Shown: positions 33,521 through 34,954 of the stretch, in pieces
Position numbering within the stretch: position 1 is the first letter of the stretch
Layout of the letters: every line of letters begins with the position of its first letter
Assembly (NCBI GenBank): GCA_964016885.1
Contig: OZ024742.1
Span: 334,428,001 to 334,492,000 of the forward strand
DNA: 64,000 bases
Source of the DNA: Eledone cirrhosa
Lineage: Eukaryota
Direction of reading: 5' to 3'
The notes under the pieces: model-generated
The model's input: only the letters and a program-made list of their open reading frames with translations
Database searches by the model: none
What the model was told of the DNA's origin: nothing
Made by a program: the position numbers and the translations under genes

Positions 33521-34313
33521 GGCCGCTACGTCTTGTCAAAGCCAACTGGTCCTACAATGCTTGAGGCTCGATATGTAATACAGTTTTGGCGTCAAGCTCG
33601 GCAAAAACGCTGCATATGTTCTTGTGACTCTGCTCTTGTCCTCAATTACTAGTTGGTGTTATTGCTATTTCAGTCATGTTTTCTGTTTAATTATGGTTGG
33701 AGTTCGTTTATGTTTGTCACTTGTGAGATATGTCGCAGCGTTGCGCCTTTTCTGTGTGCAGGTATGATTTTTTTCTATCTTCTTTAGCGTGCCCCCATGT
33801 TCCATTTTGGCATATTACTGGAGTACTGATGAGTTCTTTCTATCTTGGAGTTCTCGTCAATGTTCATTTATCCTTTCAAAATGGAGCACGAGGGCACAAT
33901 ACAGAACATAGAAATAAAAATCATATCCAATTACAGAGAAGCCACAATGTATATATAGATAGCATGACGGACGAACGGGCAGTAAATTCTCCCTCAACTC
34001 ACCCCCACCCATCATACCGTTTTCGGAGAGTAAGTCGACAGCGAGTTTGGCCACAAGCTAAGAATAGATGAAAACACACGAAAAAACTTAATTATCAATT
34101 TTATTTAGTATTATTAGTGGTCAACATACAAACAAACTTCTATTTTATAAGGACATACATTTATACATACATATATACACACACTTAGATATATATATAA
34201 TATGTAAAAATATTTCGTATCTCCAAAGAAATACAGTTTTAGGAAGCCGTAGCTATGCAAACACCGGGGGGCTAACGCCCTCTGGTGATGTCCACCAGAA
34301 ACAAGGGGGACAA

Positions 34314-34355
34314 CCGTCTATGCATTTCAAGCTTAACTGGCCTTCGTCAGCACGG
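34314..34355 (-). ncRNA. Minimal type I hammerhead
   Basis: CCGTG-CTGACGA-AGGC cagttaa GCTT-GAAA-TGCA-TA-GACGG. Confidence 0.85.
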
Positions 34356-34704
34356 TTCCTCCCACCGCTTGCGACTGCTGGACTAGAAGACAGCTGAGAA
34401 TATATACTTTTCTCGTCTATGTAAATGAGGTGATAATCTCATTTGTATATGAAGCTGCATAAGTTGGCTCAACTTATAATAAAAAAGAAATAGGATTTCG
34501 CTTCAAGCATAGCTTTATACAATATGTATCAATATTTCGTATCTCCAAAGAAATATAGCGAAATCATATTTCTTTTTTATTATAAGTTGAGCCAACTTAT
34601 GCAGCTTCATATGTAAATGAGATTAATCACCTCATTTACACAGACGAGAAAAGTATATATTCTCAGCTGTCTTCTAGTCCAGCAGTCGCAAGCGGTGGGA
34701 GGGA

Positions 34705-34746
34705 CCGTCCTGACGAAGACCAGTTAAGCCTGAAATGCATAGACGG
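34705..34746 (+). ncRNA. Minimal type I hammerhead
   Basis: CCGTC-CTGACGA-AGAC cagttaa GCCT-GAAA-TGCA-TA-GACGG. Confidence 0.88.
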
Positions 34747-34896
34747 TTGTCCCCCTTGTTTCTGCTGGACATCACCAGAGCGCGTTAGCCCCCCGGCATT
34801 TGCATAGCTACGGCTTCCTAAAACTGTATTTCTTTGGAGATACGAAATATTTATACATATTGTATAAAGCTATGCTTGAGGCGAAATCCTATTTCT

Positions 34897-34954
<58 letters not shown>

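What the first reader, a model, noticed from the sequence alone, without database searches (positions are those of the whole stretch)
34209..34899. Two differently permuted, terminally redundant copies of one ~322-nt HHR monomer joined head to head
Seen: the left arm repeats its first 25 nt after 322 bp. The right, inverted arm repeats a different ~16-nt segment at its two ends. Both arms therefore run just over one full turn of the same sequence but open at different positions, and each carries a minimal HHR with palindromic stem III (ATGCAT). Inference: this is the footprint expected from two cDNA syntheses on a circular (or multimeric) RNA template at one insertion site.
Basis: partly seen in the sequence, partly recalled or inferred. 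Interest (0 to 1): 0.85.

Follow-up and report, generated by a model that had tools for sequence, protein, structure and literature searches.

The report
Two-armed ribozyme retroelement, paired start sites
This is one of more than a thousand copies of a small non-coding jumping element with a predicted self-cutting RNA motif; its two back-to-back arms almost always end at two different fixed sites, which likely records a Penelope-type enzyme copying the RNA from both sides of one DNA cut, and the RNA was probably, but not provably, a circle.

Summary
Observation confirmed with small corrections. Left arm 34200-34558 (minus, 359 nt) and right arm 34557-34899 (plus, 343 nt) are 1.1 turns of one 322-nt unit, each with one minimal type I hammerhead. 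The family has at least 1131 exact motif copies. The permutation is not random. Outer ends fall at two fixed sites about 40-47 nt apart (A, +119; B, +158-166 from the predicted cut), and 103 of 108 classifiable two-arm insertions carry one A and one B. Target duplications flank whole units, and the two arm lengths are independent. This points to one event with two cDNAs and excludes fold-back. An autonomous Neptune-type Penelope family in the same genome shows the same rule (22 of 22) and spacing (+126, about +166) without sequence likeness. The unit has no fixed 5' end, crosses its cut site without scars, and stops more often after about one turn, which favours a circle. Uncut linear multimers remain possible, and no RNA data were available. 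It works like an animal non-LTR retrozyme with the known Penelope inverted-copy-plus-tail footprint. The scan noted similar two-arm elements before, in other DNA and in another family of this genome.

The parts
34200..34558 (-). Left arm, 359 nt, unit positions 83 to 322/1 to 119; outer end at start site A
34557..34899 (+). Right arm, 343 nt, unit positions 139 to 322/1 to 158; outer end at start site B (carries the tail)
34308..34359 (-). Minimal type I hammerhead of left arm; core CUGACGA 34350-34344, palindrome AUGCAU 34325-34320, predicted cut 34319|34318; G-G mismatch closing stem I
34701..34752 (+). Minimal type I hammerhead of right arm; core 34710-34716, palindrome 34735-34740, predicted cut 34741|34742; A-C mismatch in stem II
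34557..34558 (.). Head-to-head joint of the two truncated 5' ends, 2-nt overlap (AG)
34200..34236 (-). Terminal redundancy of left arm (repeated at 34522-34558)
   Evidence: D7
34880..34899 (+). Terminal redundancy of right arm (repeated at 34557-34576)
   Evidence: D9
34860..34899 (+). A-to-B interval ('tail'), present at the right outer end only
34190..34199 (.). Left (TA)n flank, target microsatellite
34900..34959 (.). Right (TA)n flank; any target duplication is hidden in the repeat

Best explanation
This is a dead-end copy of a non-coding 322-nt hammerhead repeat, likely inserted in one event by a borrowed Penelope-type (probably Neptune) enzyme that would cut both strands of a TA-rich target and prime two cDNAs, one at each of two fixed sites on a probably circular RNA. 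Shown: two head-to-head arms, one ending at site A and one at site B; random inner ends; arms longer than the unit; no scar or pile-up at the hammerhead cut. Inferred steps: (1) tandem source copies with two hammerheads are transcribed, cut as a dimeric ribozyme through the palindromic stem III and ligated to a 322-nt circle; (2) the enzyme, predicted dimeric in print, nicks both strands 9-18 bp apart; (3) one 3' end starts at A and the other at B, on one RNA or a fixed RNA pair; (4) each cDNA runs about one turn and stalls more often once it must displace a tethered cDNA; (5) the two cDNA ends join by microhomology, giving inverted arms with the tail at one end. This locus has one hammerhead per arm, so it cannot itself release a unit-length RNA.
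For: A/B complement 103 of 108, binomial p=4e-25, orientation random (46 vs 57); 36 of 39 in a sample picked by position and an A-proximal motif. None of 260 insertions is a simple tail-to-tail pair. Non-microsatellite duplications of 9-18 bp flank five whole A/B units (L033, L037, L049, L053, L096, of 71 displayed). Arm reaches are uncorrelated (rho -0.03), and A reaches further than B in 56 of 94. The two arms share subfamily alleles and rare variants (31 vs 3.6 expected within subfamily). Cut crossed 95 times with 0 gaps in 950 positions, against 1.0% elsewhere; 2 stops vs 2.4 expected. No 5'-end peak (P 0.34-0.59), whereas the Neptune-type family has fixed 5' ends near -72 and, in one locus, at its own cut. 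Stop rate rises from about 0.1 per 50 nt below 200 nt to 0.3-0.5 beyond 250 nt (Weibull shape 1.7, p=6e-9); 5 of 109 arms reach 500 nt vs 12 of 15 for the autonomous family. That family follows the same A/B rule (22 of 22) at +126 and about +166. In print: both strands cut and extended, two start sites bounding the tail (PMC11167929); circles from animal retrozymes (PMC7229834).
Against: No RNA was examined, so expression, cleavage and circles are untested. Short copies of the autonomous family also cross an uncut hammerhead on what look like linear transcripts, so a seamless crossing needs no ligation. Tandem sources exist: 67 exact cut-to-cut pairs and one array of about 10 units. Rare variants shared between successive turns were 0 of 111 in the first 164 loci and 20 of 583 in the larger set (3.9 expected), from only 12 of 130 loci, often on 2 of 3 passes; gene conversion could do the same. 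In vitro, uncut RNA was the main Penelope substrate (PMC11167929) and minimal hammerheads cut poorly (PMC4209133). The partner enzyme is matched by spacing only; no DNA match better than E=0.2 in 50 GIY-YIG loci. 62 of 170 two-arm loci have an outer end at neither site.
Confidence: 0.6

Rival explanations
1. Same double priming by a Penelope enzyme, but the template is an uncut linear multimer read from tandem genomic sources; no circle is involved.
For: 67 tandem pairs and a 10-unit array exist; uncut hammerheads are copied in the autonomous family and in vitro (PMC11167929); the rise in stop rate could reflect finite template length.
Against: A linear template should leave a 5'-end peak at a start site or at the cut, as the autonomous family does; none is seen. 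Subfamily alleles are the same on successive turns, which needs repeated passage through one unit. The one long array is old, has its own alleles on every informative unit, and looks like a duplicated 5-mer.
Confidence: 0.3
2. The unit is the pLTR or a deletion remnant of an autonomous Penelope element with this very sequence, and the tandems are ordinary partial tandems.
For: All structural hallmarks are those of Penelope pLTRs (PMC8557442, PMC3846280); retrozymes are reported to derive from pLTRs (10.64898/2026.07.22.740005). Only 50 of 10,596 GIY-YIG candidates were read.
Against: No match to the unit in those 50 loci. 140 odd-end flanks from 216 insertions showed no shared coding sequence: 7 adjacent pairwise hits, none forming a group beyond three loci. 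Penelope ORF pieces near some copies belong to several families and lie in varied orientations.
Confidence: 0.06
3. One cDNA folds back and self-primes, giving the inverted arm (the self-priming model proposed for Penelope head-to-head repeats).
For: Proposed in PMC3846280; centre joints often show short overlaps (87 of 156 with 1-9 nt).
Against: A fold-back arm must be contained in the first arm. A lacks the tail so cannot template B, and A reaches further 5' than B by more than 10 nt in 56 of 94 loci; none are within 10 nt.
Confidence: 0.03
4. Two independent insertions, or a DNA-level inverted duplication, at a TA hotspot.
For: TA repeats attract several repeat families here (for example L009 sits beside a Neptune-type end).
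Against: The strict A/B pairing, shared alleles, whole-unit target duplications and absence of simple tail-to-tail pairs.
Confidence: 0.01

Closest known systems
Animal non-LTR retrozymes (Cervera and de la Pena 2020, PMC7229834; Li, Clavereau and Pollet 2026, 10.64898/2026.07.22.740005)
   Same: Non-coding unit of about 320 nt, GC 42%, type I hammerhead, head-to-tail repeats in part of the family, target duplications longer than 4 bp, co-occurrence with Penelope elements.
   Different: Described there as tandem repeats, monomers and multimers; here the dominant form is an inverted two-arm insertion with two fixed, paired ends. The hammerhead is the minimal Penelope type. Circles were shown there, not here. 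This locus has no two tandem hammerheads.
Endonuclease-containing Penelope-like elements, Neptune/Nematis type (PMC8557442, PMC3846280, PMC4209133)
   Same: Inverted 5'-truncated copy, tail at one end, 8-10 bp duplications, microsatellite targets, minimal hammerhead with palindromic stem III. The host's own family F2 has the same end spacing from its cut.
   Different: No RT/GIY-YIG frame; no fixed 5' end; tail about 40-47 nt rather than 30-40; no sequence likeness to F2.
Poseidon of Anolis in vitro (Frangieh et al. 2024, PMC11167929)
   Same: Both strands cut and extended, AT-rich targets, two internal start sites that bound the tail.
   Different: That study saw no strand difference in start site, and I found no report there of pairing within one event. 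It saw no primer homology, whereas here 1-10 nt of microhomology is seen at A in the few readable loci.
L1 twin priming (recalled, no call)
   Same: Both target ends prime cDNA, giving a 5' inversion.
   Different: In L1 the second site is variable and the arms do not overlap; here both sites are fixed and the arms copy the same sequence.

Membership tests
Non-LTR retrozyme | Type I hammerhead in the unit | tested here: met
   Core intact in 99 of 132 copies from 103 loci not picked by the hammerhead motif; core plus stems in 48. No Rfam hit.
Non-LTR retrozyme | Unit of 150-450 nt, GC below 50% | tested here: met
   322 nt, GC 0.42
Non-LTR retrozyme | Head-to-tail tandem units with two hammerheads (family level) | tested here: met
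   67 exact cut-to-cut pairs, one array of about 10 units
Non-LTR retrozyme | Two consecutive hammerheads at this locus ('active' criterion of Li et al.) | tested here: not met
   One hammerhead per arm, on opposite strands
Non-LTR retrozyme | No protein coding | tested here: met
   Longest stop-to-stop frame 101 aa, partly in flank; no Penelope protein match at the locus
Non-LTR retrozyme | Target duplication longer than 4 bp when present | tested here: met
   9-18 bp in five loci of 71 displayed; hidden in (TA)n at this locus
Non-LTR retrozyme | Self-cleavage | not testable with these tools
   Dimer fold predicted for the right arm only
Non-LTR retrozyme | Expressed as linear and circular RNA | not testable with these tools
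   No RNA holder listed
EN+ Penelope-like element | ORF with RT and GIY-YIG | tested here: not met
   none linked in flanks
EN+ Penelope-like element | Inverted 5'-truncated copy, head to head | tested here: met
   170 of 260 insertions
EN+ Penelope-like element | Tail at one end only | tested here: met
   103 of 108
EN+ Penelope-like element | Descent of the unit from a pLTR | tested here: inconclusive
   Same spacing as family F2, no sequence match; 50 of 10,596 candidates read

The most novel reading that the evidence does not exclude
The family is a genomic record of rolling-circle target-primed reverse transcription: a Neptune dimer holds one 322-nt RNA circle, starts one cDNA at each of two sites set about 120 and 165 nt past the hammerhead, and each copy stalls on the other's tethered cDNA after about one turn. 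The spacing from the ribozyme, not sequence, would be what lets the retrozyme borrow the enzyme, and the same pairing would explain the one-sided tail and inverted ends of Penelope elements generally.
Probability: 0.35. Interest if true: 0.78.

Novelty: new variant of a known kind. Interest (0 to 1): 0.56.

Why it matters
How Penelope elements make their inverted ends and one-sided tail, and how retrozymes get back into DNA, are both open in the papers read. The strict one-A-one-B rule, seen in both a retrozyme and an autonomous family of the same genome, gives a testable model that replaces self-priming for this family. It also supplies a 322-nt substrate and a young, near-intact candidate enzyme (L342) for an in vitro test of circle versus linear template.

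Tried and rejected
Rfam found no hammerhead family. The look-up of sequencing runs: no RNA holder listed. The three unlabelled runs laid show many divergent copies, one sample, and say nothing on circles. The circle folds better than shuffles on both strands (z -3.3 sense, -4.9 antisense), so folding does not pick a strand or show a circle. Classical twin priming with non-overlapping arms fits this locus (20-nt gap) but not the family: B inner ends are spread widely. A ruler-like stop at the cut was looked for and not found. Search for an autonomous parent with this sequence failed. My simple scan found no canonical hammerhead core behind the ORFs of three other Penelope families (F1, F3, F4); their ends were not mapped. 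The first deduplication wrongly merged L016 and was redone by place. L042, L259 and L283 (local duplications) were left out of variant counts, and low-complexity columns were masked. Literature searches for the pairing rule or two-arm retrozymes found no such report; subscription papers and supplements were not seen.

Full report
What is there. The window is G000:C3:334428001-334492000 in a 3.0-Gb animal genome rich in (TA)n; the organism is not given. The feature is an inverted pair of a 322-nt unit. Numbering from the G after the predicted hammerhead cut, the left arm (minus, 34558 to 34200) runs 83 to 322/1 to 119 and the right arm (plus, 34557 to 34899) runs 139 to 322/1 to 158, joined by a 2-nt overlap and flanked by (TA)n. 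Each arm has one minimal type I hammerhead (CUGACGA, 4-bp stem II, GAAA, palindrome AUGCAU, cut after AUA); the right one folds as the expected dimer. The arms differ at 14 of 322 sites and each lies 10 from the family majority.

The family. A 24-mer across the cut has 1131 exact copies and 0 for the control. I mapped 260 distinct insertions, picked by best score, by position on contig C1 with exact motifs or as tandem pairs; the sample is therefore biased to conserved, longer copies. 170 are head-to-head pairs, 88 single arms, 2 complex; none is a simple tail-to-tail pair. Outer ends cluster at A (mode 119) and B (about 155-166; alignments run into the TA flank). Of 170 pairs, 108 have both ends at A or B: 103 mixed, 3 AA, 2 BB. 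The other 62 have at least one end elsewhere; I did not resolve why. In the sample chosen by an A-proximal motif it is 36 of 39.

One event, two cDNAs. Five of 71 displayed A/B loci lie outside microsatellites and show 9-18 bp duplications around the whole unit; 15 further loci could not be anchored. Arms of one locus differ less than arms of different loci (5.9% vs 8.2%, 78 pairs) and share 31 rare variants against 3.6 expected within subfamilies (130 loci). The 5' reaches of A and B arms are uncorrelated and A is longer in 56 of 94, which rules out fold-back as the rule. Centre joints: 87 of 156 overlap by 1-9 nt, 21 are blunt, 6 overlap more, 42 have extra letters.

The likely enzyme. GIY-YIG Penelope frames are abundant (10,596 candidates; RT plus GIY-YIG in 7 of 10 frames scanned). 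Family F2 (L154 and kin) has a CxxxxCxxC motif before the GIY-YIG domain, the Neptune/Nematis mark in PMC8557442, and a minimal hammerhead with palindrome AGUACU (6444 exact copies). Its ends lie +126 and about +166 from its own cut. 22 of 25 two-arm loci could be classed at both ends and all 22 are one A plus one B; many were chosen as close inverted pairs. The window holds another such locus at 50725-51159. The match to the 322-nt unit is in spacing and in flanking repeats only; partnership is inferred.

Circle or linear. For a circle: 170 of 359 arms exceed one unit and 7 exceed two; 95 crossings of the cut show no gap, and stops there are at background, in 59 loci not picked by the junction; inner ends show no peak. 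F2 behaves differently: many arms start near -72, behind a TATA-like box, and L342 is a 99.9% palindrome of two full-length copies joined at the cut, with B and A outer ends, as linear templates would give. Unit arms stop more often beyond 250 nt and are far shorter than F2 arms on long templates (15 F2 arms read by hand). Against: F2 short copies also cross an uncut hammerhead; 67 tandem pairs and a 10-unit array could give linear multimers; shared rare variants between turns were absent in the first set (0 of 111) and modest in the larger one (20 of 583, 3.9 expected, 12 of 130 loci); bound protein or RNA structure near A could also raise stops. No RNA could be examined. I put the circle at about 0.6 and uncut multimers at 0.3.

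Comparison with print. PMC8557442 (passages) and PMC3846280 (passages) describe the inverted truncated copy, 8-10 bp duplications and a tail often at one end; the latter proposes self-priming. PMC11167929 (parts 1-2 of 4 and passages) shows both strands cut and extended, two start sites bounding the tail, a predicted dimer, and uncut RNA as main substrate. PMC4209133 (passages) describes minimal dimeric hammerheads and suggests circular templates. PMC7229834 (passages) shows circles from animal retrozymes. 10.64898/2026.07.22.740005 (parts 1-3 of 5) links retrozymes to pLTRs. No supplements were read; figure S2 of PMC11167929 may bear on end pairing. Six searches found no report of strict pairing or of two-arm retrozymes. 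L1 twin priming is recalled.

Verdict. It works like a non-LTR retrozyme inserted by Penelope machinery. The family meets the sequence criteria tested; this locus fails the two-hammerhead criterion, and cleavage and circles are untested. The anatomy is known; the counted pairing rule, the shared spacing and the contrast in 5' ends are the additions. Interest 0.56.

Noticed in passing
window 50725-51159: Short head-to-head copy of the Neptune-type family F2, two minimal hammerheads (50872 minus, 50949 plus), A end left and B end right, in (TA)n.
   Followed up: partly
L342 (G000:C1:21870000-21879999), joint at 6371-6383; L321, L322: 99.9% palindrome of two full-length F2 elements joined at the hammerhead cut (+1 and about +9), outer ends B and A; suggests the ribozyme cuts in vivo and sets the 5' end of the full-length template. 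The coding region is in two frames.
   Followed up: partly
L293-L339: Very many F2 copies start about 72 nt before the cut, behind TATA- and CCAAT-like boxes: likely a short linear transcript mobilised on its own.
   Followed up: partly
L259 (G000:C2:83.92 Mb), 2131-5435: Array of about 10 units of the 322-nt repeat ending at site A; looks like a duplicated 5-mer; every informative unit shares T290 and C247.
   Followed up: yes
outer ends of both families: (CA)n/(TG)n often follows the A end and (TC)n or (TATC)n the B end, matching the last letters of each end: possible stutter at the start of copying or later slippage.
   Followed up: no
window 55724-55795, 58153-58224, 58940-59010, 63202-63273, 63790-63860: Cluster of tRNA-Met(CAT)-like genes, some degenerate; initiator type by recall.
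   Followed up: no
window 35567-36604: 450-bp tandem, 2.3 copies, 93%; not the hammerhead unit.
   Followed up: no
window 6792-7778, 23129-23812, 48899-49238: Fragments of Penelope RT/GIY-YIG frames of several families.
   Followed up: no
window 33000-33339: Two tandem copies of a 135-nt repeat, about 205 bp apart, SINE-like by recall.
   Followed up: no
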